Below are positions 7,647 to 21,052 of a DNA stretch of 33,424 nt, piece after piece. Position 1 is the first letter of the stretch. Every line of letters starts with the position of its first letter. This DNA comes from Candidatus Portnoybacteria bacterium (GTDB lineage: Bacteria > Patescibacteriota > Minisyncoccia > Portnoybacterales > GWB1-42-6). The position numbers and the translations under genes are program-made. The DNA is taken from NCBI GenBank assembly GCA_028717445.1, contig JAQUNU010000001.1, forward strand, positions 1-33,424, written 5' to 3'. The notes beneath the pieces were generated by a model that made no database searches, was not told where the DNA came from, and saw only the letters and a list, made by a program, of their open reading frames with translations.

Positions 7647-7931
7647 ATGCAATTTCACGTTCCTCAATTCCTCGATATTGAAGACAAAATTATCGGCCCT
7701 TTAACCCTTAAACAATTCGCCTACCTAGCCGGCGGGGGAGTCTTGCTTTTTATTCTGTCTAATTATGTAAAATTATGGCTTTTTTTGATAATCGCCGCGC
7801 CTTTGGCCGCGTTTTGCATGGCTCTGGCCTTTATCCGGGTCAACGGCCGACCATTTATTTCAATCTTTGGCGCTTTTGTAAATTACATGGTCAAGCCGAA
7901 GCTTTTTGTCTGGAAAAGAAAAGAAAAATGA
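7647..7931 (+). CDS. PrgI-family small membrane protein (VirB3-like T4SS component)
   Basis: 94 aa. The N-terminus VPQFLDIEDKIIGPLTLKQFAYLAGGG followed by two TM helices is the signature of the PrgI family (Pfam PF12666, recalled from memory). It lies directly upstream of the VirB4-like genes, as in Gram-positive T4SS loci. Confidence 0.7.
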   Translation: MQFHVPQFLDIEDKIIGPLTLKQFAYLAGGGVLLFILSNYVKLWLFLIIAAPLAAFCMALAFIRVNGRPFISIFGAFVNYMVKPKLFVWKRKEK

Positions 7932-7944
7932 GCTGTAAAAACAT

Positions 7945-8625
7945 ATGCCCGAACCACAATCAAACATTTTAAACAAAATACCAATCGCCGACATTCAGAA
8001 TGGAATCGTCTTCTTAAAAGACGGTTCGCTTCGGGGAGTTTTAATGGTTTCTTCCGTAAACTTTGCCCTGAAATCAACCGACGAACAGGACGCGCTGACC
8101 TTTCGCTATCAGCAATTTTTGAATTCCCTCGATTTTCCCATCCAAATCCTGATCATGACGCGGCGGTTTGATATCTCCGACTACATCGCCTTGATTGACC
8201 AAAAGAAAAAAGAACAGGAGAACGAACTGCTGCGGATCCAAACCGGTGAATATATTGATTTCATCAAAGGATTGACTCAAGTCGTCAATATTATGAGCAC
8301 TTTTTTTTATATCATCATCCCTTACGCCCAAAGCGAACCGGCCAAAGCGGCCATGGGCTTTGCGGACAAAATAACCAGAAAGATTTTCAGCCAGGAAACG
8401 AGTCAAAATCAAGAAAAACAATCCCTAGAACAAATGCAGACCGGGCTCTGGCAGCGCGTAAATTATATAATCTCCGGCTTGACCATGTGCAATTTGAAAA
8501 GCGCCATTTTAGACGACTTGGAATTAAAAGAGCTTTTTTACAAGCTTTACAATCCGCAATCAGAGCAAAGAGCCGAAACAGAATCTCCGTCAAGCAATCC
8601 AGGATTTAATTTCACCCAAAAATAA
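7945..8625 (+). CDS. Hypothetical protein; resembles a VirB4/TrsE N-terminal domain without an ATPase domain
   Basis: 226 aa. IADIQNGIVFLKDGSLRGVLMVSSVNFALKSTDEQDALTFRYQQFLNSLDFPIQILI resembles the start of VirB4-type proteins. There is no Walker motif. The stop lies 3 nt before the VirB4-like ATPase start. Confidence 0.5.
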   Translation: MPEPQSNILNKIPIADIQNGIVFLKDGSLRGVLMVSSVNFALKSTDEQDALTFRYQQFLNSLDFPIQILIMTRRFDISDYIALIDQKKKEQENELLRIQTGEYIDFIKGLTQVVNIMSTFFYIIIPYAQSEPAKAAMGFADKITRKIFSQETSQNQEKQSLEQMQTGLWQRVNYIISGLTMCNLKSAILDDLELKELFYKLYNPQSEQRAETESPSSNPGFNFTQK

Positions 8626-8628
8626 ATT

Positions 8629-10440
8629 ATGGATTTACCATTTTTTTCAAAACAAAAAAACAAAACAAAACAAACGCCCGAATCGAAGATTGCGGAAATA
8701 TTGGCGCCCTCAGCCATGAAAATAAACGCCAATTTCATCCAGCTCGGCGGCAAATTATGCCGGGTTCTTTTTGTTTTTACCTATCCAAGGAATCTCTCGA
8801 CTAATTGGTTCTCGCCGGTTCTCACCATGGATAAGGAGTTAAATATTTCGATGTTCATCAAGCCGGCCGAAACGCATCTCATCCTAAAACAATTAAGAAA
8901 AAAAGTCGCCCAGGTGCAATCACAGATTTCAGCCCAGCAGGAAAAAGGGAAAATCAGAGATCCCATCCTGCAAACCGCGCTTCAGGATATGGAAACGATG
9001 CGCGACACGCTCCAGCAGGGGACAGAAAGATTTTTTAATTTTGGTCTCTATATCGCCGCTTTCGGCAATTCGCCCCAGGAGCTTGACCAGATTGAGAATG
9101 AACTCCGGGCCGCGATGGAATCAAAATTAGTCTATGTCAAGCCCGCCACTTTCCAACAAGAAGCCGGCTTCACTTCAATTCTGCCGCTGGCCAAAGACGC
9201 TCTTTCGATTTCGACGCCGATGAACACGGCCCCGGTTTCCAGCACATTCCCTTTTGTCTCCTCGGATCTTTCTCAAAACAAAGGCATTCTTTATGGCATT
9301 AACCGACACAACAACAGCTTGATACTTTTTGACCGTTTTTCTTTGGAAAATGCCAATATGGTTATTTTCGCCAAGTCCGGCGCCGGAAAAAGCTATGCGG
9401 TCAAGCTTGAAATATTAAGATCGCTCATGATGGGATCGGACGTTATTGTGATCGATCCGGAAAACGAATATCAGTATCTTGCCGAAACAGTGGGCGGCTC
9501 ATATATAAAAATTTCGCTGACTTCGCCGCATCATATTAATCCTTTTGACCTGCCGATTCCCAGAAAAGATGAACGGCCAGGCGATATTTTACGCTCAAAC
9601 ATCATCAACCTGGTTGGCCTTATCCGAATAATGCTGGGCGGCTTGACCCCGCAGGAAGACGCTGTTTTGGATAAAGCCCTGACAGAAACTTATGCTTCGC
9701 GGGATATTACTCCTGAATCTGATTTTGCGAACATTACGCCGCCGCTCTTAAGCGATCTTAAAACCATCCTTGGCAACATGGAGGGCGGCCAATCCATGGC
9801 GCAGCGGCTCGAAAAATATACCAGCGGCTCATACGCCGGCTTCTTTAATCGGCCCACGAACGTGGCGGTCAAAAACCGATTGGTTGCTTTTTCCATCCGC
9901 GATATGGAAGAAGATCTCCGGCCGATGGCCATGTATGTTGTGCTCCATTATATCTGGAACCTGATCCGTTCGGAGATGAAAAAAAGAATTCTCGTCGTGG
10001 ACGAGGCCTGGGTCATGATGCGTTACGAAGATGCCGGTTCTTTTATGTTCGGCATTGCCAAAAGATGCCGTAAATATTTTCTTGGCCTAACCACGATCAC
10101 CCAAGATGTCGCCGACTTCATGGCCTCAACCTACGGCAAGCCAATCGTCACCAACTCCTCCATCCAGCTCCTGATGAAACAATCGCCAGCCACTATCGAA
10201 ATTATCCAAAACACCTTCAATCTGACCGACCAAGAAAAGTATCTTCTGCTGGAATGCAATGTCGGAGAAGGAATATTTTTTGCCGGCTTAAAGCACGTGG
10301 CCATCAAAGTTATCGCCTCCTACACCGAAGATCAGATTATCACCTCCGACCCGGCCCAGCTGCTTGAAATAGAAAAGGCTAAAGAAGAATTAACAGCGGA
10401 AGAAAACCAACCAACCGATAACAACTTGGACATTATTTAA
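8629..10440 (+). CDS. virB4: VirB4/TrsE/TraC-like type IV secretion ATPase
   Basis: 603 aa with Walker A FAKSGAGKSYAVK and Walker B RILVVDEAW. There is a downstream TTITQ sensor-like motif, and the N-terminal domain carries the YPRNLSTNWF motif typical of VirB4 homologs. Confidence 0.85.
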   Translation: MDLPFFSKQKNKTKQTPESKIAEILAPSAMKINANFIQLGGKLCRVLFVFTYPRNLSTNWFSPVLTMDKELNISMFIKPAETHLILKQLRKKVAQVQSQISAQQEKGKIRDPILQTALQDMETMRDTLQQGTERFFNFGLYIAAFGNSPQELDQIENELRAAMESKLVYVKPATFQQEAGFTSILPLAKDALSISTPMNTAPVSSTFPFVSSDLSQNKGILYGINRHNNSLILFDRFSLENANMVIFAKSGAGKSYAVKLEILRSLMMGSDVIVIDPENEYQYLAETVGGSYIKISLTSPHHINPFDLPIPRKDERPGDILRSNIINLVGLIRIMLGGLTPQEDAVLDKALTETYASRDITPESDFANITPPLLSDLKTILGNMEGGQSMAQRLEKYTSGSYAGFFNRPTNVAVKNRLVAFSIRDMEEDLRPMAMYVVLHYIWNLIRSEMKKRILVVDEAWVMMRYEDAGSFMFGIAKRCRKYFLGLTTITQDVADFMASTYGKPIVTNSSIQLLMKQSPATIEIIQNTFNLTDQEKYLLLECNVGEGIFFAGLKHVAIKVIASYTEDQIITSDPAQLLEIEKAKEELTAEENQPTDNNLDII

Positions 10441-10441
10441 A

Positions 10442-10843
10442 ATGGCCAATGAAATAAATAAAATAAGAAGGGATGATAGCAAGGAAAAAAAAGAAACAAA
10501 CATCAATAGCCCGAAATCCGACGTCACGAGTATCGAATTTGCCCTAATCGCCTTAGTCGCCGTAGGCAAAGACGGCTTGGATGCCGGAGCGACACTCTCG
10601 ATCATCGGAGTGCCTTTAACGCCCATATTAAATATCGGCGCGATAATGATTTTGTGGCTTTGGTGCGTAATGCGGCTAAAAGAATTCCCAACCAAAAGAT
10701 TCGCGGGTTCCGCCATGTTGGAATTCTTGCCTTTTTTGAACGCACTGCCGTTCTGGACGGCTTTCCTGATTCTTATTTATATCCAACAAAACTTTCCCAA
10801 TCTTTCAAAGTATATTCCGGGTTCGAAAGATGAAAAAAAATAA
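10442..10843 (+). CDS. Small integral membrane protein (hypothetical, T4SS-like cluster)
   Basis: 133 aa with a charged N-terminus followed by about 3 hydrophobic helices. It starts 1 nt after the VirB4-like stop. Confidence 0.55.
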   Translation: MANEINKIRRDDSKEKKETNINSPKSDVTSIEFALIALVAVGKDGLDAGATLSIIGVPLTPILNIGAIMILWLWCVMRLKEFPTKRFAGSAMLEFLPFLNALPFWTAFLILIYIQQNFPNLSKYIPGSKDEKK

Positions 10844-10852
10844 ATTGAAAAT

Positions 10853-11704
10853 TTGAAAATCACTAAATTTTTTTTCGCAAATATTTTGCCCGCTTTTTAT
10901 TTTCTCTCCTGCTCGACCGCATTTGCCCTGGAATATCCCTTCGGCAATCTGTCGGCCAATCCCACTCCCTGCGAATATATTAAAACGGCATACATTTGGG
11001 GTCTGGGGATTGTCGGCACTCTGGCGGTGGCCGTGATCGCTTTTGGCGGTTTTCTTTACATGGTGGGGAAAGTGGAGCAGGGCAAAGACTACATCACTTC
11101 GGCGTTTTTGGGAATACTGCTGCTTTTTGGCGCTTACCTGATTCTCTACACTATTAATCCGGAATTGGCACAGTTGAAGTGCGAGATAAAGAATATGCAA
11201 CCCTTGGGAACTCCGCCCACCGGCGCTTCGGTGCCAATAACACCTGGCTCAACCACCGGCACTTCGCTTGGAGAACAGGCGGCTCGGGGCGCTTTGGCCA
11301 GCGGCGTAGGCGTAAAAGACGCTTGTCCGCCTGGGCAGGCGACCGGATGCGTTAGAATGGAGGGGATGAAGGATACAACCGTTAACGAAATAAATGATTT
11401 AGCCGGCAAAGTTGGGCCTGAAAATATCTACATTTCAGGCGGCACCGAAGGGTGCGGCGCCACTGGCTCAACAATTCATTCAACCGGCTCAGTCAGCCAT
11501 TGTTCCGGCGATAAGTATGACATGAGACAGAATAACACCGTTAATAATTATATCGAAAACGCTTTTGTAAAAATGCCCAATCGAAAATACGATGGCGCCG
11601 AAATGTGGATGGACCCAAAAACCGGAACCACTTATGCCAAAGAAATGGGCGTTGTAGGAACGGTTAACGGACCACACTGGGACGTGGCTGTCCGGAAAAT
11701 TTAA
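10853..11704 (+). CDS. VirB2/TrbC-like 'T4SS pilin' N-terminal module fused to a putative LAS/M15-type zinc peptidase (cell-wall hydrolase) domain
   Basis: 283 aa with a TTG start. It has a signal-like N-terminus and then two TM helices (IWGLGIVGTLAVAVIAFGGFLYM and FLGILLLFGAYLILYTINP), as in the Patescibacteria T4SS pilin family. A Pro/Thr linker follows. The C-terminal domain carries SHCSGDKYD (H-x3-G-x3-D) and GPHWDVAVR (H-x-D) motifs. Confidence 0.6.
   Translation: MKITKFFFANILPAFYFLSCSTAFALEYPFGNLSANPTPCEYIKTAYIWGLGIVGTLAVAVIAFGGFLYMVGKVEQGKDYITSAFLGILLLFGAYLILYTINPELAQLKCEIKNMQPLGTPPTGASVPITPGSTTGTSLGEQAARGALASGVGVKDACPPGQATGCVRMEGMKDTTVNEINDLAGKVGPENIYISGGTEGCGATGSTIHSTGSVSHCSGDKYDMRQNNTVNNYIENAFVKMPNRKYDGAEMWMDPKTGTTYAKEMGVVGTVNGPHWDVAVRKI
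10923..11200 (+). repeat. Direct repeat copy A (278 bp, identical to 11797-12074)
   Basis: A base-by-base read of both copies shows identity. Both the sense and the antisense ORF translations are also identical across the repeat. Confidence 0.95.
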
Positions 11705-11735
11705 ATTATCAAATTCGGAAAAATCTAATAATATT

Positions 11736-12194
11736 GTGAAAAAATATTTTAAAATAATTTTTTCTTTGATCGGCCTAACCTTTCCGATTTTCTCCCTTGC
11801 CCTGGAATATCCCTTCGGCAATCTGTCGGCCAATCCCACTCCCTGCGAATATATTAAAACGGCATACATTTGGGGTCTGGGGATTGTCGGCACTCTGGCG
11901 GTGGCCGTGATCGCTTTTGGCGGTTTTCTTTACATGGTGGGGAAAGTGGAGCAGGGCAAAGACTACATCACTTCGGCGTTTTTGGGAATACTGCTGCTTT
12001 TTGGCGCTTACCTGATTCTCTACACTATTAATCCGGAATTGGCACAGTTGAAGTGCGAGATAAAGAATATGCAAAAATTTAATGAAGCGCCGCAACCGAC
12101 AAAAACGACGGACGAACCGCTCCCGCAATCGATGACCGAAAAAATAGATGCCGGCGCAACCAACCAAGACATAAAAGACGACATGTTAAAATAA
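11736..12194 (+). CDS. VirB2/TrbC-like 'T4SS pilin' paralog with a short hydrophilic tail
   Basis: 152 aa with a GTG start. Residues ALEYPFGNL...AQLKCEIKNMQ are 100% identical to the preceding gene. The signal peptide and C-terminal tail are unrelated to it. Confidence 0.7.
   Translation: MKKYFKIIFSLIGLTFPIFSLALEYPFGNLSANPTPCEYIKTAYIWGLGIVGTLAVAVIAFGGFLYMVGKVEQGKDYITSAFLGILLLFGAYLILYTINPELAQLKCEIKNMQKFNEAPQPTKTTDEPLPQSMTEKIDAGATNQDIKDDMLK
11797..12074 (+). repeat. Direct repeat copy B (278 bp, identical to 10923-11200)
   Basis: Same as copy A; the offset between copies is 874 bp. Confidence 0.95.
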
Positions 12195-12213: not shown

Positions 12214-13311
12214 ATGAAGAAAAAAATCTTTGTCGCTTTAATAATATTTTTCGTCTTAAGCAGCGGCTCGCTGCTGATTTATAATTTCTTTTTCAAAGAG
12301 AAAACGGAGACAAAAATCGAGGAAAATAAAGAAAAAGCCGAGATAAAAGCGATCAGCGAAAAACAAGCGTTTGCCCCTTTTTTGGAGAACGGCCAAGTCA
12401 AATATTATCTGGCCCAAAACGGCCACGTCGTTCAGTCAAAATTTGACGGCACCCAAAAAAAGGAAATTTCCACGACAGATCTGAAAGATTTGAAAAAAGT
12501 GGCCTGGTCTCCTGATGGCAAAAAAGTCATCGGTTTTTACGGCGAAACAACCGGCAACGGGGTAAAAAAATCCGTTTTTGATTACATAACAAAAAAATCA
12601 TACCCGCTCGACGCCAACATCCGCTCGATCGCCTGGTCGCCGGACAGCAAAAAAATTATTTATCAATACTCCGATAATCAGGGGAATAACAACATCAGCG
12701 CGGCCAACCAGGATGGCTCTGGTTGGCATAATATTCTGCAGACTCGGCTGGGAAATTTGGTCGTCGAATGTCCGACGCCCGGCAAAATTTCCCTTCGGAG
12801 CGTGCCAAACAGCCAAACCAAGGGCTTTCTTTTTGTCCTTGAAGAAAAAACAGAAAATATAGTCGCGGTTCTGGATGATTTAAACGGCTTCTCGGCCAAA
12901 TGGTCGCCGGACGGACAAAAAATCCTTTATCAGACAACAAACGCCAAAGGCCAAGATTTGAAGCTCTTCGTCGCCGACAGCCAAGGCCAAAACAGCCTCC
13001 AGCTGCCCGCGATCACGCTGGTTGAAAAATGCGCTTGGTCCGCGAATAGCCAGAAAATCTTTTGCGCCGCGCCCCAAAATATCTCCGATAACGCAACTTG
13101 GCCTGAGGATTGGCTAGATGGACTCGTTTCCGTTAAAGACGATCTCTATGAGCTCTCTGCCGACGGCAAAGAAAAAACAAAAATCGTCGCTTCTGACGAA
13201 GCGCGATCTTTTGATGTAAATGAAATTATTGCTTCTCCCCAAGGCGACTACGTTCTATTTACCAGCCGCCGCGATGGCCTGCTTTGGAGCGTCGCCATTC
13301 CCAATAATTAA
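12214..13311 (+). CDS. Membrane-anchored PD40/TolB-like beta-propeller repeat protein
   Basis: 365 aa with an N-terminal TM helix. PD40 signatures recur: AWSPDGKKVIGFY, AWSPDSKKIIYQY, KWSPDGQKILYQT, AWSANSQKIFC, ASPQGDYVLFTS. Confidence 0.75.
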   Translation: MKKKIFVALIIFFVLSSGSLLIYNFFFKEKTETKIEENKEKAEIKAISEKQAFAPFLENGQVKYYLAQNGHVVQSKFDGTQKKEISTTDLKDLKKVAWSPDGKKVIGFYGETTGNGVKKSVFDYITKKSYPLDANIRSIAWSPDSKKIIYQYSDNQGNNNISAANQDGSGWHNILQTRLGNLVVECPTPGKISLRSVPNSQTKGFLFVLEEKTENIVAVLDDLNGFSAKWSPDGQKILYQTTNAKGQDLKLFVADSQGQNSLQLPAITLVEKCAWSANSQKIFCAAPQNISDNATWPEDWLDGLVSVKDDLYELSADGKEKTKIVASDEARSFDVNEIIASPQGDYVLFTSRRDGLLWSVAIPNN

Positions 13312-14544
13312 CGCCGCGGCCAAAGCGATCAAAACCCAAAAAATCAAAGCTAGGTCATTTTTAAAATAAGGCGTATCAGCCAAACCGTGAACGATAAAAT
13401 AAACCATAGGCAACAGCAAAATCAGCGCCAGCTGATTTTTCTGTTTAAATAAAAGGAAAAGCGTTTTTTTGAAAAAGGATATCAGCAACCAAGCGAATCC
13501 CGCCAAACCCAGAATCCCGGTTTGCAGCCAAAAGGCCAAAAAAATATTATGCGGTTGGGGCACGGCCCATTCAAGATAGGGAATGGGAAATTTAGACTGA
13601 TATTTCAAATAATAATCCTGGAACATCCCGGGCCCGATGCCCAAAAACGGATTTTCCTTTATAATTTCCGAGGCGGCTCTCCAGATCATCAAGCGTGATT
13701 GCCACGAGGAGCGGGGTGACGAAAAAAGATCATCTAGCTTAGAACTTCCGACCTGAAGAAAAAATATAAACATTAATAAAAGAAGGATGGCTCCAATCCT
13801 AAAACGATATCCGGAGGCGATAATAATCCAGAAAAAAACAGCAACCGCAACTCCCAGCCAGGCCGCGTAGGAAAAGGTCAGATACAAAGCGACGCCGGAA
13901 AAAACAAGGGAAAGCAAAAAAAGTGTCAGCGTCATCTTTCCTTTTTTTAAAATCGAATCCCAAAAAGCCAACCCGACCACAAAACCGGGCGACAGATACA
14001 TGGCCAGATAATTAGGCGAAAGAAAGAACGCGGCCAGACGGCCGTCAAAGGTCTTTTGCCCGGCCAGGAAAAAACACAACGAGATCAAGCCGACCGCGCC
14101 GACCGAAAGAATGAAAGAAAAAACAGCTTTTTCAAAAAAAGCGCGCCATCTGGCGGAAACGAATAACATCATCGCGAAAAGAACCGGCGCCAAAAACCAG
14201 CCTTTTAAAATTCCGGCGCTTATATTGATATTTTTCGAAAACAAGGTCGAGCCGGCCGCGCCGATAAAAATTAAAAGCGCGGGCAGGATAAAAAATTTTA
14301 TTTGGGCCAATGCCAAAAACCTGTATTGCTTTTTAAAGATCCAAATCGCCAAAGCCAAAAAAATCAGAATCTCAAGAACCGAAAAGGGGATAAAAAAGAT
14401 TCTAATTTTGAGAAGATAAAGAGGCGCCAAAAAAATTATAGAGCAAAGGGCCAAATCGAATCTCTTGACGCCAACCAAGACAAAACTGGCCAAACCGAGC
14501 GCCAGAAAAAATATTTCCCAAAATGAATTAAGCAGAATATTCAT
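13255..14544 (-). CDS. O-antigen ligase/polymerase-like (Wzy_C family) polytopic membrane protein
   Basis: 429 aa with about 10 or more TM helices and a central loop. It is tandem with a clearer paralog. Its 3' end overlaps the convergent PD40 gene by 57 nt. Confidence 0.6.
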   Translation of the reverse strand: MNILLNSFWEIFFLALGLASFVLVGVKRFDLALCSIIFLAPLYLLKIRIFFIPFSVLEILIFLALAIWIFKKQYRFLALAQIKFFILPALLIFIGAAGSTLFSKNINISAGILKGWFLAPVLFAMMLFVSARWRAFFEKAVFSFILSVGAVGLISLCFFLAGQKTFDGRLAAFFLSPNYLAMYLSPGFVVGLAFWDSILKKGKMTLTLFLLSLVFSGVALYLTFSYAAWLGVAVAVFFWIIIASGYRFRIGAILLLLMFIFFLQVGSSKLDDLFSSPRSSWQSRLMIWRAASEIIKENPFLGIGPGMFQDYYLKYQSKFPIPYLEWAVPQPHNIFLAFWLQTGILGLAGFAWLLISFFKKTLFLLFKQKNQLALILLLPMVYFIVHGLADTPYFKNDLALIFWVLIALAAALIIGNGDAPKQAIAAAGK

Positions 14545-15895
14545 GATTTTTAACGTTCCTTGCCAAGGCTAGAATAATTAAAAAAAAGGAAATAATCACA
14601 GGATTAAAAACCGCCGATTCAAAAAGGGAGTGGGAAAAAAAATAAACAAGCGAACCAAAAAGACCGATTGCCAAAAAAGAGGAATGTTCGCTTTTTCGGC
14701 TCCTGATAAATTTCAGAAGCTGATAAAAGCTTCCCGCCAGGAGTAAAAACCAGGCAAAAAAACCCAGAATCCCGGTCTCAACTAAAAGATCAAGATAAAG
14801 ATTATGGCTGGTGATCGGGGTGCGGTAGGAAGCGAGCGGATCGGCATAGCGAGGATAATTGCCCAAACCTACGCCTAAAATCGGATTTGAAATGAAAACC
14901 TGCCAAGAATTTCGCCAAATCTCAAGACGAGAAATGGAAGAACCTTCCGATAAAAAGAAACTGGAAAAAAAGCGTTCAAGAACCGGCTGCGCCAGGGCAA
15001 TGATAAGAAAAAAAATCAATATTCCGGCCATTATTATTTTTACTTTCACTGGGCCGCTAAAAGATCGCCAGCCCAGAAAGATCATCGAAACAAAAGCCGC
15101 CACAATCCCTAAATAACCGCCCCGTGAAAAGGTTGCCAGCAGAACCAAAAAAATAAAACCAGCCAGAAAGAAAAGAAGAAGTTGATTTTTTTTTGATCCC
15201 ATGGCTCCGGCCACGACAAGCGGCAAAATCATTCCCAAAAAAAATGAAAGCATATGCGGATCAGGAAAAGAACCGAATGCCCGCATTATGTCTCCGCCGG
15301 CCAAAGCAACAAACCAGCTTGGATGCTGGCCAACCATGAGGGAAAAATTATTCCCCCATAAAAAAGGCCCGGCTTTTTGCAAATAAAAAGAAGATAAAAC
15401 CTCCGGACCAAACACGAATTGGGCTAAAAATTGCATCACTCCGGCTAAGGCCGCCAAAAAACCCAATCCAAAAATTATTTTAAGCACTTTCTGAAATCGA
15501 TTTTTATCCCTTAAAAAAGCCGAGGCAAAAAAGAATAAAGGAAAGACTGAGGCAAAAAAGAATAATTTCCTGATTCCCCATAGAAATTCCTGCGCTCCCA
15601 TTATAGAAAAAAGGGCAAAAATAAAAAACAACAACAAACCAAACCCCTGGAAAGAGAGCGTTTCTGAAACAAAAAAAGAGGGGAGAGACCACCTAAAAAA
15701 GAAGCCGCCGGCTAGCCAAAAAAGAAAAAAGACGGGAATCAGCACTCGTCCAGAAACCAGATCAATGTCACTGCTCAAATTCAAGGCAAATTGAAAAAAT
15801 AAAAGGAAAATTAAAACAAAAAAAGAAATATCAAAAAAATCCGGCTTCGTCTTTCGCCTGATGTTTAAGTCTCGCAGATAAGTTTCTGATTTCAT
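14528..15895 (-). CDS. O-antigen ligase/polymerase-like (Wzy_C family) polytopic membrane protein
   Basis: 455 aa, polytopic. The TFSRGGYLGI motif is characteristic of the O-antigen ligase domain. Confidence 0.65.
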   Translation of the reverse strand: MKSETYLRDLNIRRKTKPDFFDISFFVLIFLLFFQFALNLSSDIDLVSGRVLIPVFFLFWLAGGFFFRWSLPSFFVSETLSFQGFGLLLFFIFALFSIMGAQEFLWGIRKLFFFASVFPLFFFASAFLRDKNRFQKVLKIIFGLGFLAALAGVMQFLAQFVFGPEVLSSFYLQKAGPFLWGNNFSLMVGQHPSWFVALAGGDIMRAFGSFPDPHMLSFFLGMILPLVVAGAMGSKKNQLLLFFLAGFIFLVLLATFSRGGYLGIVAAFVSMIFLGWRSFSGPVKVKIIMAGILIFFLIIALAQPVLERFFSSFFLSEGSSISRLEIWRNSWQVFISNPILGVGLGNYPRYADPLASYRTPITSHNLYLDLLVETGILGFFAWFLLLAGSFYQLLKFIRSRKSEHSSFLAIGLFGSLVYFFSHSLFESAVFNPVIISFFLIILALARNVKNHEYSA

Positions 15896-17317: not shown

Positions 17318-17779
17318 CTATAGAACAGGCCTTATAATAATCCTCCTGTCTGGTCCAATGCCCGAGCTTTCCGCAATGACACCTTCCTGATCTTTCAGGG
17401 CTAAATGAATAATCCGCCGCTCAAAAGCGGACATTGCTTCTAAGATTTTTTCTTTTTTCCCGTCTCTCACTTCTTGAGCCACCCGCAAGGCCATCTCTTT
17501 TAAAAATCGGAGACGGGCAGATCGATAATTATTTATGTCAATGATAAAATGAGGACATTCAGGCCCGGTTTTTTTAGCCATCATTATTTTGGCCAGATAT
17601 TGCAAAGCCTCCAAGGTCTCTCCTCCCTGGCCAATTAAAAATCCCGCCTCATCGCTTTCAATATTAACCGTCAAAAAATCGCCTTCATCTATCTGAACAG
17701 GGCCTCTCGGCTCAAAATCCATCCGGGAAAGAAGATCATGAACCAAAGTTTTTAAATTTTCTTTAAGATTGCTTTCCAT
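17318..17779 (-). CDS. jag: RNA-binding protein Jag/KhpB (KH + R3H domains)
   Basis: 153 aa with a KH-like FLIGQGGETLEALQYL and an R3H-like FERRIIHLAL. It occupies the conserved position downstream of yidC. Confidence 0.85.
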   Translation of the reverse strand: MESNLKENLKTLVHDLLSRMDFEPRGPVQIDEGDFLTVNIESDEAGFLIGQGGETLEALQYLAKIMMAKKTGPECPHFIIDINNYRSARLRFLKEMALRVAQEVRDGKKEKILEAMSAFERRIIHLALKDQEGVIAESSGIGPDRRIIIRPVL

Positions 17780-18476
17780 TTTTTTTAAGAAAAAAATATT
17801 GCTGAATAATAGTTAAAATATTGCTGAGCGTCCAATAAAGCGCCAATCCCGCTGGAAATTTTATTCCAAGAAAAACCGTCATAACCGGAAAGACATAAAG
17901 CATCTGTTTATTCATCAGGCCGGCAAAATCGTTTTTTCCGGAAGCCGGCTTGTTCGTCATCATCATTTTTGACTGAATAAATTGAGTTATGCCAGCGAGC
18001 ACTCCAAAGATTATGCTGCCCTTGGCCAAATCCACTATCCCAAGGAAAAAATGATTAATTGTCTCAGGCCGTTCAATAAACCAATAAAGACTTTTAAGTT
18101 TTTCGGGATCAAGACCGGTGCGGAAAACGGTGAACATCGCGATTAATACAAGGAACTGGATGATTAACGGCAGGCAGCCGGCGGCTGGATTAACCTTGTG
18201 CTCCTTATATAATTCCATCATGGCCCGGCCCTGCTTCTCCCGATCGTTTTTATATTTCTCCTGAATTTCTTTTATTTTCGGCTGGATGGCCTGGGTCTCT
18301 TTCTGGGATTTTATGGCCTTCTGCGAAACTGGAAAAAGTATCAGTTTTATCAAAATCGTTAAAATGATAATGGCCAGCCCAAAATCATGCCCCGGGATTT
18401 GATTGTATAAAAAAATAAGGCTGTTGAAAAGCGGCCGATAAAGAACTTCATTAAAAAGATAGCTAAGAAATTCCAT
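17763..18476 (-). CDS. yidC: Membrane protein insertase YidC (short Gram-positive/CPR type)
   Basis: 237 aa with MMELYKEHKVNPAAGCLPLIIQ and FPAGLALYWTLSN motifs. It shows synteny with yidD, rnpA and rpmH. Confidence 0.9.
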   Translation of the reverse strand: MEFLSYLFNEVLYRPLFNSLIFLYNQIPGHDFGLAIIILTILIKLILFPVSQKAIKSQKETQAIQPKIKEIQEKYKNDREKQGRAMMELYKEHKVNPAAGCLPLIIQFLVLIAMFTVFRTGLDPEKLKSLYWFIERPETINHFFLGIVDLAKGSIIFGVLAGITQFIQSKMMMTNKPASGKNDFAGLMNKQMLYVFPVMTVFLGIKFPAGLALYWTLSNILTIIQQYFFLKKNGKQS

Positions 18477-18742
18477 TAAGGGAGGGGATCTAGGCCACCA
18501 TGATTAAAAGGATGACATCTGATGATCCTTTTAAAACTAAGCCAGAACCCTTTAAAAATGCCAAATTTTTCAAATGCAAGATAACTGTAATGCGAGCATG
18601 AAGGCCAAAACCGGCAAGTTTGTCTTCGATTCCTGAAAATCCCGCTCTCTGGAGATAAAAATATCTGATAGAATTTAATCAGAATCATAAATGGTTTAGC
18701 TGGCCAAAAGACCAACCCCCTCCAAAAGGCCGAGAATTTCAT
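18476..18742 (-). CDS. yidD: Membrane protein insertion efficiency factor YidD
   Basis: [46 protein letters not shown] matches the YidD consensus. The tracked ORF extends to 18802. I prefer the internal ATG at 18742 (or 18688) because the longer form overlaps rnpA extensively. The start is uncertain. Confidence 0.8.
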
Positions 18743-19037
18743 TTTCAATGTCCCGCTGGTTTTTTCCAATAATATTTTTTTTGGCGATAAGAGCATAGTC
18801 ATATTCGTTCAACCGGGGCAAAAGCCGAAAAAAAATTTCACTTAAATACCGCCTGATCTTGTTGCGTTCGTGGGCTTTTTTAGCTGTTTTAGCGCTAACC
18901 AAAAAAAGGAAGCGGGTCTGGCCGGGGCCGCTTTTAAAATATCTGATATCAACTAAATTGCCCTTGATTGACCGGCCGGCTTTCAATAAATTCTTAATTT
19001 CTTTTTCCCGGCTCAAACGGTTTTTTTTAGGGAGCAT
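18696..19037 (-). CDS. rnpA: Ribonuclease P protein component RnpA
   Basis: 113 aa, basic, starting [14 protein letters not shown] with an RNR-like KIRR motif. It lies immediately downstream of rpmH. Confidence 0.85.
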
Positions 19038-19038
19038 C

Positions 19039-19173
19039 TTAGACGGTTAATCTTTTTCTTTTTTTGGCTCTTCTTTTGTTTAAAACGCGGCGACCGCCAA
19101 ATTTGCCCATTCTCGCCAAGAATCCGTGCGTTCTCTTTCTTTTTTTCTTTTTTGGTTTATAAGTTTGGCTCAT
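19039..19173 (-). CDS. rpmH: 50S ribosomal protein L34
   Basis: Not in the ORF track (under 60 aa). The hand translation of the minus strand gives [44 protein letters not shown] (44 aa), which matches the L34 consensus. The stop lies 1 nt before the rnpA start. Confidence 0.9.
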
Positions 19174-19196
19174 AAAAATAAAAAATATTAGCTGCT

Positions 19197-19225
19197 TTGA
19201 CACCAAATTAAGTTTAGTATAGTAT
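19197..19225 (+). promoter_or_regulatory. Candidate dnaA promoter (TTGACA-17-TAGTAT, or 15-nt spacing to TATAGT), divergent from and overlapping the rpmH promoter
   Basis: ttgaca at 19197-19202 with tagtat at 19220-25 (or tatagt at 19218-23). The -10 match is weak. Confidence 0.3.
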
Positions 19226-19244
19226 TAAATAACCTCAAAGTCAA
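19216..19244 (-). promoter_or_regulatory. Candidate sigma70-type promoter for rpmH-rnpA (TTGACT-17-TATACT)
   Basis: The minus strand reads ttgact(19244-19239)-17 nt-tatact(19221-19216), about 40 nt upstream of the rpmH ATG. Confidence 0.45.
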
Positions 19245-19447
19245 TTTTTTGAATACAAAAAAGAGATTTGTAAAAATTCGCTCCTCCACAATATTTTCAC
19301 AACTTATCAACAAAACAAGTTATTTAACGGGCTTAAATTTACTTCCCATTAACTTTTTATTTTTGATATAATTCTATAAACGGCGAAAAGAGGCCTTGAA
19401 CAAAAGCGTGGCCTAAAATTTAAAAGCACGCACCGCAAAAAAATCAT

Positions 19448-20812
19448 ATGACCAATCAGGAACTTTGGCAGGCGGCCTTAGGAGAAATCGAACTAAATAT
19501 TTCCAAGACCAACTTCATAACCTGGTTCAAAAGCACCGAGATCGTCAAAATAAAGGATGGCGCGGTGACCGTTGGCGTGCCCAATGGCTTTGCTAAAGAA
19601 TGGCTGGAAAATAAGTATAACAAGCTGATCTTAAAGGCCTTAAGGAATATCTCGCCAGACACAAAGGAAATCGAATTCATTATCGGCGCCTTTTCTTCTC
19701 CGGATTCAGGCGACAGGCCTCTCAAGCTTAAAAAGAAAGAAACTGTTCTCGTGGGCCAGCCCTTCCAGGAGTTTGAGATCAACAAGGAAACCCACCTTAA
19801 TCCCAAATACACCTTCGATAATTTCATTGTCGGCTCATTCAATGAACTTGCGCGGGCCGCGGCCCAGGGCGTGGTCAAGAATTTGGGCGCTCTTTATAAT
19901 CCCTTCTTTATCTATGGGGGAGTGGGTCTTGGGAAAACCCACTTAATCCAGGCCATCGGCAACGAAACCGTCCGCCTTTATAAGAATGAAAAGAAGATCT
20001 GCTACATCAGTTCGGAAAAATTTACGAGCGAGCTAGTGGAATCTCTTTATAAAGGCCAGGTTGAAGAATTTAAAAACAATTATCGCCAAATCGATCTTTT
20101 AATTATCGACGACGTGCAGTTTTTAGCGGGCAAAGAAAAAACCCAGGAAGAATTCTTCCACACGTTCAACGCCCTTTATCAAAGCAACAAACAAATAGTC
20201 ATCAGCTCCGACCGGCCTCCAAAGGCCATCGCAACACTCGAAGAGCGGCTAAAATCCCGCTTTGAAGGCGGCATGATCGCCGATATCTCTTTCCCGGATT
20301 TTGAATCGCGCCTCGCGATTTTAAAAGCCAAGGTTATGGAAAAGAACTTTCAACTCTCGGAAGAAGTTCTTAATTATCTGGCTAATAACATCCAAAAAAA
20401 CATTAGAGAGCTGGAGGGGGCGCTGAACCGCTTGGTTATCTCCGAAAAGCTTAGCGGTTCAAGCGTTGACATTGACCAGGTCGCCAAGATTCTGACCGGC
20501 ATCAACTCCAGCCCCTCTAAAAAGATCAGCTTTAAGACCATCCTACAGGCTGTGGCCGAGTTCTACGACATCAACACCAGCCAGCTAATCAACCGCTGCC
20601 GGAAAAAAGAATTGGTCTACCCCAGACAGATCGCCATGTTTCTCATGCGCGAGGAATTGAAAAGCTCTTTTCCTTTCATCGGTGAAAAACTTGGCGGCCG
20701 GGATCACACCACGGTTATGTATGCCTGCGAAAAGCTGATCCGCGAAGTGGAAACAAACGAATCCCTCCAACAAGAGATTAATCTCATCAAAGAGCATATG
20801 TATAACAGATAA
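19448..20812 (+). CDS. dnaA: Chromosomal replication initiator protein DnaA
   Basis: 454 aa with Walker A GGVGLGKTHL, Walker B LLIIDDVQF and sensor/box VII motifs. The C-terminal DNA-binding domain reads GGRDHTTVMYACEKL. Confidence 0.97.
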   Translation: MTNQELWQAALGEIELNISKTNFITWFKSTEIVKIKDGAVTVGVPNGFAKEWLENKYNKLILKALRNISPDTKEIEFIIGAFSSPDSGDRPLKLKKKETVLVGQPFQEFEINKETHLNPKYTFDNFIVGSFNELARAAAQGVVKNLGALYNPFFIYGGVGLGKTHLIQAIGNETVRLYKNEKKICYISSEKFTSELVESLYKGQVEEFKNNYRQIDLLIIDDVQFLAGKEKTQEEFFHTFNALYQSNKQIVISSDRPPKAIATLEERLKSRFEGGMIADISFPDFESRLAILKAKVMEKNFQLSEEVLNYLANNIQKNIRELEGALNRLVISEKLSGSSVDIDQVAKILTGINSSPSKKISFKTILQAVAEFYDINTSQLINRCRKKELVYPRQIAMFLMREELKSSFPFIGEKLGGRDHTTVMYACEKLIREVETNESLQQEINLIKEHMYNR

Positions 20813-21052
20813 GCAAAAACGAAGGCCGAAGGATCGGGATAACCCAGTGGATAAAACATTAAAAACCACGGGAACAAAACAGGATAAAAAAAGATACAAA
20901 CAAAATCCTAATATTCTCCACCGATTTATTCACAGACCCGTTCATTAATTTTTCCGCTTCAGTAAAAGATATTTTTACTTTTCCACAGAATATAATTTCT
21001 TAATAATAATTCTTTTTTTTCTTAATAGACATATAAAGAATTATTAATCAGT
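20813..21052. other. Candidate oriC segment (dnaA-dnaN intergenic region) with three 8/9 DnaA boxes and an AT-rich tract
   Basis: TTATCCACT lies on the minus strand at 20846-20854. TTATTCACA is at 20926-20934 and TTTTCCACA at 20979-20987. An AT-rich stretch runs 20990-21050 (ataatttcttaataataattctttttttcttaatag...). Confidence 0.5.

What the first reader, a model, noticed from the sequence alone, without database searches (positions are those of the whole stretch)
10853..12194. 278-bp perfectly identical direct repeat builds two pilin-like genes from one shared module and different ends
Positions 10923-11200 and 11797-12074 are identical base for base; I read both copies in full. The repeat begins just after each gene's own, unrelated signal peptide. 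It ends exactly where the two proteins diverge, after ...AQLKCEIKNMQ. The first continues into a ~190-aa extra domain, the second into a ~45-aa hydrophilic tail.

Perfect nucleotide identity over 278 bp, against unrelated flanks, argues for very recent duplication or ongoing gene conversion. This gives a cassette-like arrangement: one membrane/pilin scaffold displaying alternative C-terminal payloads. Recombination between the copies would also delete or swap the payload domain, which is a possible phase- or variation-type mechanism.
Basis: seen in the sequence. Interest (0 to 1): 0.7.

Follow-up and report, generated by a model that had tools for sequence, protein, structure and literature searches.

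The report
Shared pilin module kept identical
Two neighbouring secretion-system pilin genes of an uncultivated ultrasmall bacterium share a base-for-base identical 278-nt membrane module but carry different signal peptides and different outer ends; the same pattern turns up in other ultrasmall bacteria, which points to repeated copying of one gene's module into its neighbour (gene conversion).

Summary
Positions 10923-11200 and 11797-12074 are 100% identical, and the flanks are unrelated. The window is a whole 33.4-kb contig of a Candidatus Portnoybacteria (Patescibacteria/CPR) genome assembled from a metagenome.

The two genes lie directly downstream of virB4 in a type IV secretion locus next to dnaA. 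Both have the same plan: signal peptide, a two-helix VirB2-like pilin module, a linker and a variable C-terminus. Gene 1 carries a 140-aa domain of a large unannotated family. Gene 2 carries only a 39-aa tail.

The pattern is not unique to this contig. Five independent CPR loci have adjacent pilin genes whose modules are 92-99.7% identical in DNA, with perfectly identical cores of at least 150 nt. Their signal peptides and C-terminal domains differ (L,D-transpeptidase, lytic transglycosylase, weak NlpC/P60, and unannotated domains).

Modules group by genome, not by payload. Third-codon identity is 85-100% within genomes and about 47% between the window and its relatives. A related metagenome shows the same gene-1 plus short-tailed-pilin arrangement.

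Best explanation: recurrent gene conversion keeps one pilin scaffold uniform beneath different payloads. Phase variation by deletion is possible but untested. An assembly artefact is unlikely, though the perfection of the identity could owe something to repeat collapse during assembly.

The parts
7945..8625 (+). N-terminal part of VirB4 (TraC-like), encoded as a separate ORF; context for the T4SS locus
   Evidence: NCBIfam VirB4/TrsD-type hits, E 2e-8 to 8e-5. The syntenic genes in L001, L002 and L101 carry PF26593 TraC-like.
8629..10440 (+). VirB4-type T4SS ATPase (603 aa)
   Evidence: Pfam P-loop_TraG 2.5e-24, DUF87 and AAA_10. 75-80% aa identity to the VirB4 genes upstream of the pilin genes in L001-L003, L095 and L101.
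10442..10843 (+). Conserved 133-aa protein of unknown function that precedes the pilin slot in all syntenic loci
   Evidence: ORF; no Pfam or NCBIfam hit. Genes of 123-160 aa occupy the same position in L001, L002, L003, L095, L098 and L101.
10853..11704 (+). Gene 1: pilin module plus payload domain (283 aa, MDD5589554.1 'pilin')
   Evidence: ORF; exact NCBI record. AF2 model with pLDDT 82: N-terminal helix 4-27, helices 39-70 and 74-101, disordered 112-126, alpha/beta domain 140-283.
10853..10927 (+). Gene 1 signal peptide (MKITKFFFANILPAFYFLSCSTAFA); unrelated to that of gene 2
   Evidence: Read from the sequence: basic N-region, hydrophobic core, AFA|LEYP. Homologues have ASA|IEYPFG at the same place. 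No similarity to gene 2's signal peptide. No signal-peptide predictor was available.
10923..11200 (+). Repeat copy 1: the mature VirB2-like pilin module (two transmembrane helices) of gene 1
   Evidence: 100% identical to 11797-12074. The module HMM built from alignment A2 matches 10925-11185 at E 7.6e-49.
11201..11269 (+). Pro/Thr/Gly-rich linker of gene 1
   Evidence: pLDDT below 50 for residues 112-126. Variable in length and composition across homologues.
11270..11701 (+). Payload domain of gene 1 ('type a'): unannotated alpha/beta domain with invariant R, E, H, H, D, H, W
   Evidence: Invariant R145, E199, H209, H216, G219, D223, H275 and W276. AF2 pLDDT 90.7, pTM 0.87. No Pfam hit. No PDB match by sequence or fold. 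Weak BFVD hit to a hedgehog-annotated protein, E 0.022, TM 0.43. 2523 clusters in the 1.84-billion representative library.
11736..12194 (+). Gene 2: pilin module plus short tail (152 aa, MDD5589555.1 hypothetical protein PHQ47_00060)
   Evidence: ORF; exact NCBI record. A short-tailed pilin occupies the same position, directly upstream of the propeller gene, in L100.
11736..11801 (+). Gene 2 signal peptide (MKKYFKIIFSLIGLTFPIFSLA)
   Evidence: Read from the sequence; it resembles the MKK... signal peptides of homologues. No DNA or protein similarity to gene 1's signal peptide or to any fetched locus.
11797..12074 (+). Repeat copy 2: the pilin module of gene 2
   Evidence: 100% identical to 10923-11200. 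The A2 HMM matches 11799-12059 at E 2.6e-49.
12075..12191 (+). 39-aa hydrophilic tail of gene 2 (KFNEAPQPTKTTDEPLPQSMTEKIDAGATNQDIKDDMLK)
   Evidence: Translation. No homologue found by blastn or tblastn in 102 loci or in the protein search. Not significantly similar to the L100 tail: score 27 against a shuffle mean of 25.8 +/- 4.9.
12214..13311 (+). PD40/WD40-like beta-propeller protein; the conserved downstream boundary of the pilin slot
   Evidence: Pfam PD40 1.6e-10. A syntenic gene follows the pilin gene(s) in L001-L003, L095-L097, L100 and L101. 65% aa identity to the L100 copy.

Best explanation
The two genes are adjacent paralogues of the VirB2-like pilin family of the Patescibacteria type IV secretion system. 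They lie directly downstream of virB4 and near oriC.

Each protein has four parts: a Sec-type signal peptide, a two-helix membrane ('pilin') module, a flexible linker, and a variable extracytoplasmic C-terminus. Gene 1 carries a conserved domain that is probably an enzyme. Gene 2 is an almost bare pilin.

The 278-nt identity is a gene-conversion tract. Non-reciprocal homologous recombination between the tandem copies has overwritten one module with the other. The tract stops where homology stops, at the non-homologous signal peptide on one side and the linker on the other.

The process recurs in many CPR lineages, so modules evolve in concert within a genome while payloads differ. This much is shown.

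The following is inferred. Identity of the module is also favoured by selection, because the bare pilin and the payload-bearing pilin have to be processed by, and assemble into, the same T4SS structure. The payload is then displayed outside the membrane, where it acts on peptidoglycan of the cell itself or of a host. As a side effect, the repeats make the slot recombination-prone, which fits the different number and kind of payload genes seen at this slot in close relatives.
For: Repeat and flanks.

T4SS context: VirB4 and its TraC-like N-terminal part; a PrgI-sized ORF at 7647-7931. Syntenic loci carry TrbL_3, PrgI, TraC-like and VirB4 genes.

Pilin identity: weak PF18895 hits in the window's own proteins. 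The module HMM links them at E 1e-15 to 1e-23 to modules that Pfam scores above threshold for PF18895. The AF2 model shows a two-helix hairpin.

Recurrence:
- L002: 98% over 253 nt, 196-nt perfect core.
- L095: 92.5% over 281 nt, 152-nt perfect core.
- L026: 97.4% over 306 nt, 282-nt perfect core.
- L077: 99.7% over 301 nt.
- L027: 98.3% over 176 nt.
In each pair the signal peptides and C-terminal domains are unrelated.

Concerted evolution: module nucleotide identity is 100, 96 and 92% within genomes against 63-85% between genomes. Third-codon identity is 100, 93 and 85% within genomes against about 47% for the window versus all relatives.

Specificity: in 962 kb of fetched loci only 10 intra-locus repeats reach at least 100 nt at 90% identity or more. 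Seven of them lie in adjacent pilin gene pairs.

Age of gene 2: the L100/L102 pair from JGI sample 3300037484 shows the same arrangement of a type-a fusion plus a short-tailed pilin upstream of the propeller gene. The contig forms a 925-nt assembly cycle, and the two modules are mosaic: identical at the 5' end, with differences spaced mostly three bases apart toward the 3' end while the encoded residues stay the same up to ...LAKL.

Variable slot content in syntenic relatives.
Against: No reads were available. The two-copy structure and its perfect identity in this particular contig therefore rest on the assembler.

The window's own proteins score below Pfam's threshold for T4SS_pilin (14.4 and 15.6 bits against 26.6).

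L100 and L102 come from one metagenome, but nothing proves they come from one genome.

The functional part (co-assembly, payload display, action on cell wall) is inference. The gene-1 domain has no Pfam hit and no significant PDB fold match. Its one structural lead is weak (E 0.022, TM 0.43).

Homogenisation is not universal. Seven multi-copy loci have modules only 72-83% identical or not alignable at the DNA level. Quinonero-Coronel et al. 2025 (PMC12102498) describe these arrays as highly variable, with a maximum of 54% aa identity.
Confidence: 0.78

Rival explanations
1. Assembly artefact. The contig wrongly places two variants of one pilin gene (for example from two strains) in tandem, or duplicates a collapsed repeat, so only one copy exists in any real genome.
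For: The repeat (278 nt) is longer than usual k-mers and short reads, so its resolution depended on read pairs. Perfect identity is what a collapsed graph node would produce. In the related sample the same region did break the assembly: L100 starts inside the module, and L102 is a 925-nt cycle with a 127-nt end overlap.
Against: The unique 596-nt segment between the copies (payload domain, spacer, second signal peptide) is flanked by the module on both sides. Any genome that contains it must therefore have two module copies.

Both ORFs are intact and each has its own start codon and signal peptide.

Five other loci from different studies and assemblers have the same structure, with a few mismatches that prove two distinct copies.

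No other direct repeat of comparable length and identity occurs in the contig.
Confidence: 0.06
2. A single, very recent duplication or domain-shuffling event. Gene 2 was newly built by copying only the module of gene 1 between pre-existing or de novo flanking sequence. There was no older paralogue and no recurrent conversion.
For: Zero differences in 278 nt. Gene 2's signal peptide and tail have no detectable homologue anywhere. The syntenic relatives L001, L003 and L101 have only one gene in the slot.
Against: A relative whose neighbouring propeller gene is only 65% identical already has a short-tailed pilin at the same position, together with a type-a fusion gene in the same sample.

Other lineages show graded identities of 92-99.7% with perfect cores and diverged edges. 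That is the signature of repeated conversion between established paralogues, not of a single copy event.

Inserting exactly the mature module between a working signal peptide and a tail by illegitimate recombination is far less parsimonious.
Confidence: 0.1
3. A programmed variation system. The identical modules serve as recombination sites, so that deletion, duplication or exchange between them switches which C-terminus is expressed. This would resemble pilE/pilS antigenic variation or the orphan modules of polymorphic toxins. It is not exclusive of gene conversion.
For: A 278-nt perfect direct repeat is a good RecA substrate. Deletion would give SP1-module-tail and remove the payload. The slot differs in number and type of payload among syntenic relatives: type a, SLT, type c, an unknown beta-rich domain, fn3, and a short tail. 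RuvB is encoded in the window.
Against: Both copies are complete genes, not silent cassettes. Deletion would be irreversible.

No reverse transcriptase was seen among the ORFs I annotated. The mismatches in the other pairs show no adenine bias, so this is not a diversity-generating retroelement. I did not search systematically for a site-specific recombinase or an initiator element.

No population data exist.
Confidence: 0.1
4. Purifying selection alone keeps the two modules identical, without any recombination.
For: The module is conserved in protein sequence across the family (76% mean column identity in A2). In L100/L102 the 3' half differs mostly at sites spaced three bases apart while the encoded residues there stay identical, so selection on the protein does operate.
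Against: Identity includes every third-codon position (100%). The same positions are only about 47% identical between the window and all relatives. Selection on the protein cannot hold about 90 synonymous sites fixed.
Confidence: 0.01

Closest known systems
VirB2-like pilin arrays of the Patescibacteria T4SS (Wang et al. 2023, Cell, PMC10633639; Quinonero-Coronel et al. 2025, Microb Genom, PMC12102498)
   Same: Same phylum, same locus type (MPF-FATA-like T4SS with virB4, PrgI and a VirB6-like gene), same pilin family (PF18895-like), genes in tandem next to virB4, and location near dnaA.
   Different: The papers describe the arrays as 'structurally conserved but sequence-divergent', with an average of 25% and a maximum of 54% aa identity. 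Here, and in five other loci, the pilin core of neighbouring genes is 92-100% identical in DNA while the rest of each gene is unrelated. In the passages my term searches returned I found no statement that the pilin module is fused to cell-wall enzyme domains, or that the modules undergo gene conversion. I did not read their supplementary tables.
VirB1-like cell-wall hydrolases of Gram-positive conjugation systems (TraG of pIP501, PrgK of pCF10, CwlT of ICEBs1)
   Same: Membrane-anchored, extracytoplasmic peptidoglycan enzymes encoded in a monoderm-type T4SS locus. Relatives of gene 1 carry SLT or YkuD, and weakly NlpC/P60, on the same anchor.
   Different: The anchor here is a cleaved-signal-peptide, two-helix VirB2-like module, not a simple N-terminal helix. 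Gene 1's own domain is not SLT, CHAP or NlpC/P60 and has no Pfam match. My knowledge of these named proteins comes from the citations in PMC12102498 and from memory; I did not test them here.
Tandemly amplified VirB2/VirB5-like genes of the Bartonella Trw system and the virB2 paralogues of Anaplasma
   Same: Multiple tandem pilin paralogues in a T4SS locus, thought to diversify the surface-exposed parts. Cited as analogues in PMC12102498.
   Different: In those systems the whole small pilin varies. There is no separate payload domain. Their hosts are diderm intracellular pathogens.
Gene-conversion systems of surface proteins (Neisseria pilE/pilS; Helicobacter pylori babA/babB and sabA/sabB)
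   Same: Homologous recombination between paralogues with conserved and variable segments. In these systems, as here, identity between copies extends to synonymous sites in the conserved parts (from my own knowledge).
   Different: In Neisseria the donors are silent, promoterless cassettes and the variable part is what gets transferred. Here both copies are complete genes, the conserved scaffold is what gets homogenised, and the variable parts are non-homologous domains. These are type IV pili or outer-membrane proteins, not T4SS pilins.
Polymorphic toxin systems (CdiA, Rhs) with conserved N-terminal regions and swappable C-terminal domains plus orphan modules
   Same: One conserved delivery or scaffold part, many unrelated C-terminal enzymatic domains, and tandem extra copies that share a stretch of the conserved part and permit recombination.
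   Different: No immunity gene follows the payloads. The second copies are full genes with their own signal peptides. The recognised payloads are cell-wall-modifying enzymes, not nucleases or pore formers. This is a resemblance only.

Membership tests
T4SS_pilin (Pfam PF18895) / VirB2-like pilin | Score above Pfam's gathering threshold for PF18895 | tested here: not met
   Gene 1 scores 14.4 bits (E 0.041) and gene 2 scores 15.6 bits (E 0.018) against a cut-off of 26.6. Indirect link: the HMM of the window's module subfamily (A2) hits the modules of L026 and L077 at E 1e-17 to 7e-23. Pfam scores those modules at 29-33 bits, above threshold.
T4SS_pilin (Pfam PF18895) / VirB2-like pilin | Cleavable signal peptide followed by two hydrophobic helices forming a hairpin | tested here: met
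   AF2 model: helix 4-27 (signal peptide), helices 39-70 and 74-101. An AxA-type site sits before LEYPFG. Cleavage itself is not shown.
T4SS_pilin (Pfam PF18895) / VirB2-like pilin | Encoded in a T4SS gene cluster next to virB4 | tested here: met
   VirB4 lies at 7945-10440, about 400 nt upstream. Syntenic loci carry TrbL_3, PrgI and TraC-like genes.
T4SS_pilin (Pfam PF18895) / VirB2-like pilin | Polymerises into an extracellular pilus | not testable with these tools
   Needs microscopy or biochemistry. No T4SS pilus has yet been shown for Patescibacteria; PMC12857230 speaks only of the 'potential to elaborate conjugative pili'.
Concerted evolution by gene conversion between tandem paralogues | Paralogues within a genome are more alike than orthologues between genomes, including at synonymous sites | tested here: met
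   Within genomes 100, 96.1 and 92.2% nucleotide identity (third positions 100, 92.9 and 84.7%). Between genomes 63-85%, with third positions about 47% for the window.
Concerted evolution by gene conversion between tandem paralogues | A sharply bounded identical tract inside otherwise unrelated or diverged sequence; mosaic structure | tested here: met
   Identity drops to random level within 15 nt of both ends. The other pairs have perfect cores of 152-282 nt with mismatches clustered at the edges. L100/L102 is identical at the 5' end and diverged toward the 3' end, mostly at sites three bases apart.
Concerted evolution by gene conversion between tandem paralogues | Recurrence in independent lineages and specificity for this gene segment | tested here: met
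   Six loci including the window. Seven of the 10 intra-locus repeats (at least 100 nt, at least 90% identity) in 962 kb lie in pilin gene pairs.
Concerted evolution by gene conversion between tandem paralogues | Direct observation of conversion events or intermediates in a population | not testable with these tools
   Needs reads or time series.
Phase or antigenic variation by cassette recombination (pilE/pilS type) | Silent, promoterless or truncated donor cassettes and one expression locus | tested here: not met
   Both copies are complete ORFs with a start codon and a signal peptide. Both are annotated as proteins.
Phase or antigenic variation by cassette recombination (pilE/pilS type) | Population heterogeneity at the locus (deletion or swap junctions) | not testable with these tools
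   No reads. The metagenome scan found no near-identical contig; the best match was 49% aa identity.
Diversity-generating retroelement (template/variable repeat pair) | A reverse transcriptase nearby and adenine-specific mismatches between the repeats | tested here: not met
   No reverse-transcriptase domain among the window ORFs I scanned. There are 0 mismatches in the window, and the mismatches in the other pairs are spread over all base changes.
LAS / M15 zinc peptidase (hedgehog/DD-peptidase fold), for the gene-1 payload domain | An H-x(3-6)-D motif plus a distal His as metal ligands | tested here: inconclusive
   Invariant H216-x6-D223 and H275 (HWD, or HWH in two members). All of these are lost together in the degenerate copy in L095. 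The reading of these residues as a LAS motif is my own inference.
LAS / M15 zinc peptidase (hedgehog/DD-peptidase fold), for the gene-1 payload domain | Sequence or fold match to known family members | tested here: inconclusive
   No Pfam hit for any of 18 members. No PDB sequence hit. No PDB Foldseek hit with E below 1. The best BFVD hit is a hedgehog-annotated Microviridae protein: E 0.022, probability 0.98, TM 0.43.

The most novel reading that the evidence does not exclude
Patescibacteria keep a single, genome-specific VirB2-like pilin scaffold by gene conversion and hang interchangeable extracellular payloads on it. The payloads are cell-wall enzymes of several unrelated folds, or nothing. 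The slot downstream of virB4 would then work as a recombination-driven payload-exchange site. Bare and payload-bearing subunits would assemble into one T4SS surface structure, which these epibionts use to open their own wall or the wall of a host. That would give a concrete, testable role for the essential but unexplained 'pilin array' of the CPR T4SS.
Probability: 0.3. Interest if true: 0.8.

Novelty: new variant of a known kind. Interest (0 to 1): 0.55.

Why it matters
The T4SS and its pilin genes are essential for epibiotic growth of the only genetically tractable Patescibacterium. A 2024 perspective (PMC11665869) calls the role of the T4SS in Saccharibacteria 'completely unknown'.

This locus, and the survey it prompted, add two points I did not find in the literature I searched. 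First, many of these 'pilins' are two-part proteins: a pilin-like membrane module carrying an extracellular domain. Where Pfam can name that domain it is a peptidoglycan enzyme (YkuD or SLT). Second, neighbouring genes can keep the membrane module identical at the DNA level while the payloads are unrelated.

This changes the published picture of 'sequence-divergent pilin arrays'. It suggests that module compatibility matters. It also gives specific predictions that can be tested in Southlakia or Nanosynbacter, and with long-read metagenomes.

There is a practical consequence as well. These identical modules break short-read assemblies (L100 and L102). Pilin-payload genes will therefore be under-counted or made chimeric in genomes assembled from metagenomes.

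Tried and rejected
1. The look-up of encoding contigs with the DNA reference for gene 2 reported 'not on record'. I first took this to mean the gene was a pseudogene or uncalled. The exact-sequence look-up with an M start found it as MDD5589555.1, so that inference was wrong.

2. The first homology search did not list gene 2 although they share 93 identical residues. That tool is heuristic, so I do not use absences in it as evidence.

3. The Foldseek search of the full-length gene-1 model against the PDB gave only noise. The domain-only model (pLDDT 90.7) also gave no PDB hit with E below 1.

4. Pfam and NCBIfam gave nothing for the gene-1 payload, nor Pfam for the 'type c' and other payloads.

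5. Profile-profile comparison of type a against type c gave a probability of 1.2%. PDB sequence searches with both profiles gave nothing. My initial M15/LAS idea therefore remains only a motif-based lead.

6. The metagenome scan for close relatives of the module found nothing above 49% aa identity. The genome scan found one close relative (L004, 69%) plus distant CPR pilins.

7. Gene 2's signal peptide, spacer and tail have no similar sequence in 102 loci.

8. The region 10853-12194 has no match in the phage or plasmid collections.

9. The window has no tRNA and no Rfam family.

10. The promoter and terminator scan gave nothing convincing between the two genes.

11. The diversity-generating-retroelement idea is rejected: no reverse transcriptase among the ORFs I annotated and no adenine bias.

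12. 'Purifying selection only' is rejected by the third-codon identities.
Full report
**1. The observation**

The window is a complete 33,424-nt contig of a Candidatus Portnoybacteria (Patescibacteria/CPR) metagenome-assembled genome. The repeat finder gives a single long direct repeat, 10923-11200 and 11797-12074. It is 278 nt long, 100% identical, and the copies are spaced 874 nt apart. I also read both copies. Outside the repeat, identity falls to random level within one 15-nt block on each side.

The repeat lies in two intact, same-strand ORFs:
- Gene 1, 10853-11704: 283 aa, TTG start, NCBI MDD5589554.1 'pilin'.
- Gene 2, 11736-12194: 152 aa, GTG start, NCBI MDD5589555.1 'hypothetical protein'.

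The repeat starts one codon before the predicted signal-peptidase site (AFA|LEYPFG in gene 1, SLA|LEYPFG in gene 2). It ends after ...AQLKCEIKNMQ. After the repeat, gene 1 continues for 167 aa and gene 2 for 39 aa.

**2. What the genes are**

*Context.* Upstream lie a VirB4 ATPase split into a TraC-like N-terminal ORF (7945-8625) and the ATPase ORF (8629-10440), a PrgI-sized ORF (7647-7931), and a conserved 133-aa ORF. Downstream lie a PD40-type beta-propeller gene, two Wzy_C genes and a polysaccharide flippase, followed by yidC, yidD, dnaA and dnaN. Syntenic loci in other genomes (L001, L002, L003, L095, L098, L101) show the same order. Where the locus extends far enough upstream (L001, L002, L101), TrbL_3 and/or PrgI genes also appear. 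This is the MPF-FATA-like T4SS of Patescibacteria described by Quinonero-Coronel et al. 2025 (PMC12102498), who also note its frequent position near dnaA.

*The shared module.* It is a VirB2-like pilin module. The AF2 model has a signal-peptide helix and two long hydrophobic helices, 39-70 and 74-101. Pfam T4SS_pilin (PF18895) hits both proteins, but below threshold (14.4 and 15.6 bits against 26.6). An HMM of the window's module subfamily (A2) links them at E 1e-15 to 1e-23 to modules that Pfam does score above threshold.

*The gene-1 payload.* Residues about 140-283 fold confidently (pLDDT 90.7, pTM 0.87). The invariant residues are R145, E199, H209, H216, G219, D223, H275 and W276. The domain belongs to a large family: 2523 clusters at E no greater than 1e-3 among 1.84 billion representatives. 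Of 146 top-scoring representatives, 93 carry the pilin module.

The family has no Pfam model, no PDB sequence match and no significant PDB fold match. The only lead is a weak BFVD hit to a hedgehog-annotated Microviridae protein (E 0.022, TM 0.43). Together with the H-x6-D...H pattern this suggests, but does not establish, a LAS/M15-type metallopeptidase.

*The gene-2 tail.* It is 39 aa, polar and rich in Pro and Thr, and has no detectable homologue.

**3. The family is modular**

Homologues share the module A(L/I)EYPFG..NPTPCEY..WGLGIVG..GGFxYMxG..GK..SALLGLLLL..WLILYTINPxLAxLKC, followed by a Pro/Thr/Ser linker and then one of several unrelated C-termini:
- the gene-1 type ('type a');
- SLT lytic transglycosylase (P0019, P0021);
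- a Cys/His-rich 'type c' domain (P0012, P0014, P0022);
- others.

In more distant CPR genomes the PF18895 module is fused to YkuD L,D-transpeptidase, to SLT, weakly to NlpC/P60, and to unannotated domains. The idea of 'one scaffold, alternative payloads' is therefore correct for the family. Every payload that Pfam can name is a peptidoglycan enzyme.

**4. The identical module is a recurrent phenomenon**

I scanned 102 fetched loci with the module HMM and ran self-blastn on each. Adjacent pilin genes with near-identical modules, but unrelated signal peptides and C-termini, occur in five further independent loci:

| Locus | Source | Module identity | Payloads of the pair |
|---|---|---|---|
| L002 | JGI, syntenic with the window | 98% over 253 nt | unknown beta-rich domain / type a |
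| L095 | NCBI, syntenic | 92.5% over 281 nt | degenerate type a plus fn3 / type c |
| L026 | Saccharibacteria | 97.4% over 306 nt | YkuD / SLT |
| L077 | Saccharibacteria | 99.7% over 301 nt | HEIVH-containing domain / Cys-His domain |
| L027 | Falkowbacteria | 98.3% over 176 nt (cut by the contig end) | type c / not seen (contig end) |

In addition, the L034 pair shares a 403-nt, 99% identical N-terminal domain, and its modules are 85% identical.

In L002, L026, L077 and L095 virB4 lies just upstream.

Mismatch maps show perfectly identical cores (196, 152, 282 and at least 263 nt) with differences clustered at the edges. There is no adenine bias.

As a control for specificity, only 10 intra-locus repeats of at least 100 nt and at least 90% identity exist in 962 kb. 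Seven lie in pilin gene pairs. One is a contig-end overlap. Two are unrelated inverted repeats.

Homogenisation is not universal. Seven multi-copy loci have modules that are only 72-83% identical or not alignable at the DNA level.

**5. Concerted evolution**

In a codon alignment of 13 Portnoybacteria-type modules, pairs within one genome are 100% (window), 96.1% (L002) and 92.2% (L095) identical. Different genomes are 63-85% identical. At third-codon positions the values are 100, 92.9 and 84.7% within genomes, against about 47% for the window versus every relative.

Modules therefore cluster by genome, while payload types are shared between genomes. Selection on the protein alone cannot explain identical synonymous sites.

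**6. Gene 2 is not a one-off**

JGI sample 3300037484 contains two relevant contigs.
- L100 begins inside a pilin module. It encodes a short-tailed pilin (about 66-aa tail) directly upstream of the propeller and Wzy genes, exactly the position of gene 2.
- L102 is 1052 nt and encodes a type-a fusion (P0003). Its first and last 127 nt are identical, which means a 925-nt cycle in the assembly graph.

That is the expected outcome for an A-R-B-R-C structure with a collapsed repeat. The window's period is 874 nt.

The two modules are identical for the first 52 nt of L100. They then differ increasingly toward the 3' end, mostly at sites spaced three bases apart, while the encoded residues stay the same up to ...LAKL. 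That is a mosaic tract combined with purifying selection.

The neighbouring propeller proteins of the window and L100 are only 65% identical. The two-gene arrangement is therefore older than the perfect identity, which argues for conversion between established paralogues and against a fresh duplication. One caveat remains: L100 and L102 come from the same sample, but it is not proven that they come from the same genome.

**7. A variable slot**

Between the conserved ~135-aa gene and the propeller gene, syntenic relatives carry:

| Locus | Content of the slot |
|---|---|
| L001, L003/L004, L098/L099, L101 | one type-a fusion |
| L097 | one SLT fusion |
| L002 | unknown beta-rich domain fusion plus type-a fusion |
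| L095/L096 | degenerate type-a plus fn3 fusion, and type-c fusion |
| window, probably L100/L102 | type-a fusion plus short-tailed pilin |

.

**8. Mechanism**

*Shown:* two tandem paralogues whose module is homogenised at the nucleotide level, and the same pattern in several lineages.

*Best explanation (confidence about 0.78):* RecA-type gene conversion between the tandem copies. The tract is limited by the non-homologous signal peptide and linker.

*Inferred:* selection also favours identical modules, because the bare and the payload-bearing subunit must fit the same T4SS assembly. The C-terminus faces outward, as in VirB2 topology, where it would act on peptidoglycan.

*Possible but untested:* the direct repeats also promote deletion (giving SP1-module-tail) or payload exchange. 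Nothing indicates a programmed switch. Both copies are complete genes, I saw no reverse transcriptase among the annotated ORFs, and the mismatch pattern is not that of a diversity-generating retroelement. I did not search systematically for a recombinase.

**9. Artefact check**

The 596-nt unique segment between the copies is bounded by the module on both sides, so any genome holding it has two module copies. Comparable pairs with a few mismatches in other assemblies cannot be collapse artefacts. What assembly could have done is erase a small number of real differences between the two copies in this contig. Only read mapping can settle that.

**10. Comparison with what is known**

VirB2-like pilin arrays in Patescibacteria T4SS loci are known, and essential in Southlakia epibionticum. 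They are described as sequence-divergent, with a maximum of 54% aa identity. Full-text searches and the passages my term searches returned from the key papers turned up no report of module-limited nucleotide identity, of gene conversion, or of the systematic fusion of the pilin module to cell-wall enzyme domains. I did not read the supplementary tables.

Analogues elsewhere are the tandem virB2 or trwL paralogues of Anaplasma and Bartonella, the gene-conversion systems of Neisseria and Helicobacter surface proteins, membrane-anchored VirB1-like hydrolases of Gram-positive T4SSs, and, in architecture only, polymorphic toxins.

I file this as a new variant of a known kind.

**11. Verdict**

Gene conversion and the modular scaffold are supported, recent duplication is disfavoured, and phase variation is untested.
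- Interest is 0.55. This is a real, recurrent and apparently undescribed evolutionary feature of an essential but functionally opaque CPR machine. It rests on sequence evidence only.

Noticed in passing
window 22167-22301 and 27503-27637: A 135-nt inverted repeat, 94% complementary, flanks a 5.2-kb segment. The segment holds three small ORFs, a class A penicillin-binding protein (23897-26515, minus strand) and a 160-aa ORF, and lies just downstream of dnaN. Each arm starts with its own hairpin. There is no tRNA and no Rfam family. It could be an invertible segment, a MITE-like element or paired terminators.
   Followed up: partly
window 17763-22156: The T4SS locus sits about 7 kb from the replication-origin gene set: yidC 17763-18476, yidD 18476-18802, dnaA 19448-20812, dnaN 21053-22156. 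This matches the remark in PMC12102498 that Patescibacteria T4SS loci often lie near dnaA.
   Followed up: partly
window 7945-8625 and 8629-10440: VirB4 is encoded as two ORFs, a TraC-like N-terminal part of 226 aa and an ATPase part of 603 aa, separated by 3 nt. The same split is seen in L001, L002 and L101, where other genes are sometimes inserted between the parts.
   Followed up: partly
window 11270-11701 (alignment A3): The payload domain of gene 1 belongs to a family of at least 2523 clusters at 50% identity. It has no Pfam model and no significant PDB fold match, although the AF2 model is confident (pLDDT 90.7). It is a candidate new domain family and possibly a new metallopeptidase type.
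   Followed up: partly
L095 2816-5011: A 731-aa pilin fusion carries a type-a-like domain in which all the invariant His and Asp residues are replaced (SGTEGCAAQN...AGYNVGL...GQWDV). An fn3 domain and a large extra region follow. It looks like a pseudo-enzyme turned into an adhesin-like protein.
   Followed up: no
L006 9041-10423: A single ORF contains three consecutive pilin modules, a pilin 'polyprotein' of about six transmembrane helices.
   Followed up: no
L034 5283-5685 and 6760-7162: In this pair of pilin fusions the homogenised segment (99% over 403 nt) is a Cys-rich N-terminal extracellular domain that precedes the pilin module. The modules themselves are only 85% identical.
   Followed up: no
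L100 nt 1 and L102 (whole contig): Identical pilin modules break short-read assemblies. One contig starts inside the module. The other is a 925-nt cycle whose called protein (P0003) may be a chimera of the second gene's signal peptide with the first gene's payload. Pilin-payload genes in metagenome-assembled genomes may often be fragmented or chimeric.
   Followed up: partly
window 13255-14544 and 14528-15895 (minus strand): Two adjacent Wzy_C (O-antigen ligase/polymerase-like) paralogues, followed by a Polysacc_synt/MurJ-like flippase. The set is conserved downstream of the pilin slot in all syntenic loci. A 47-nt segment is shared at 72% identity (13505-13551 and 14760-14806).
   Followed up: no
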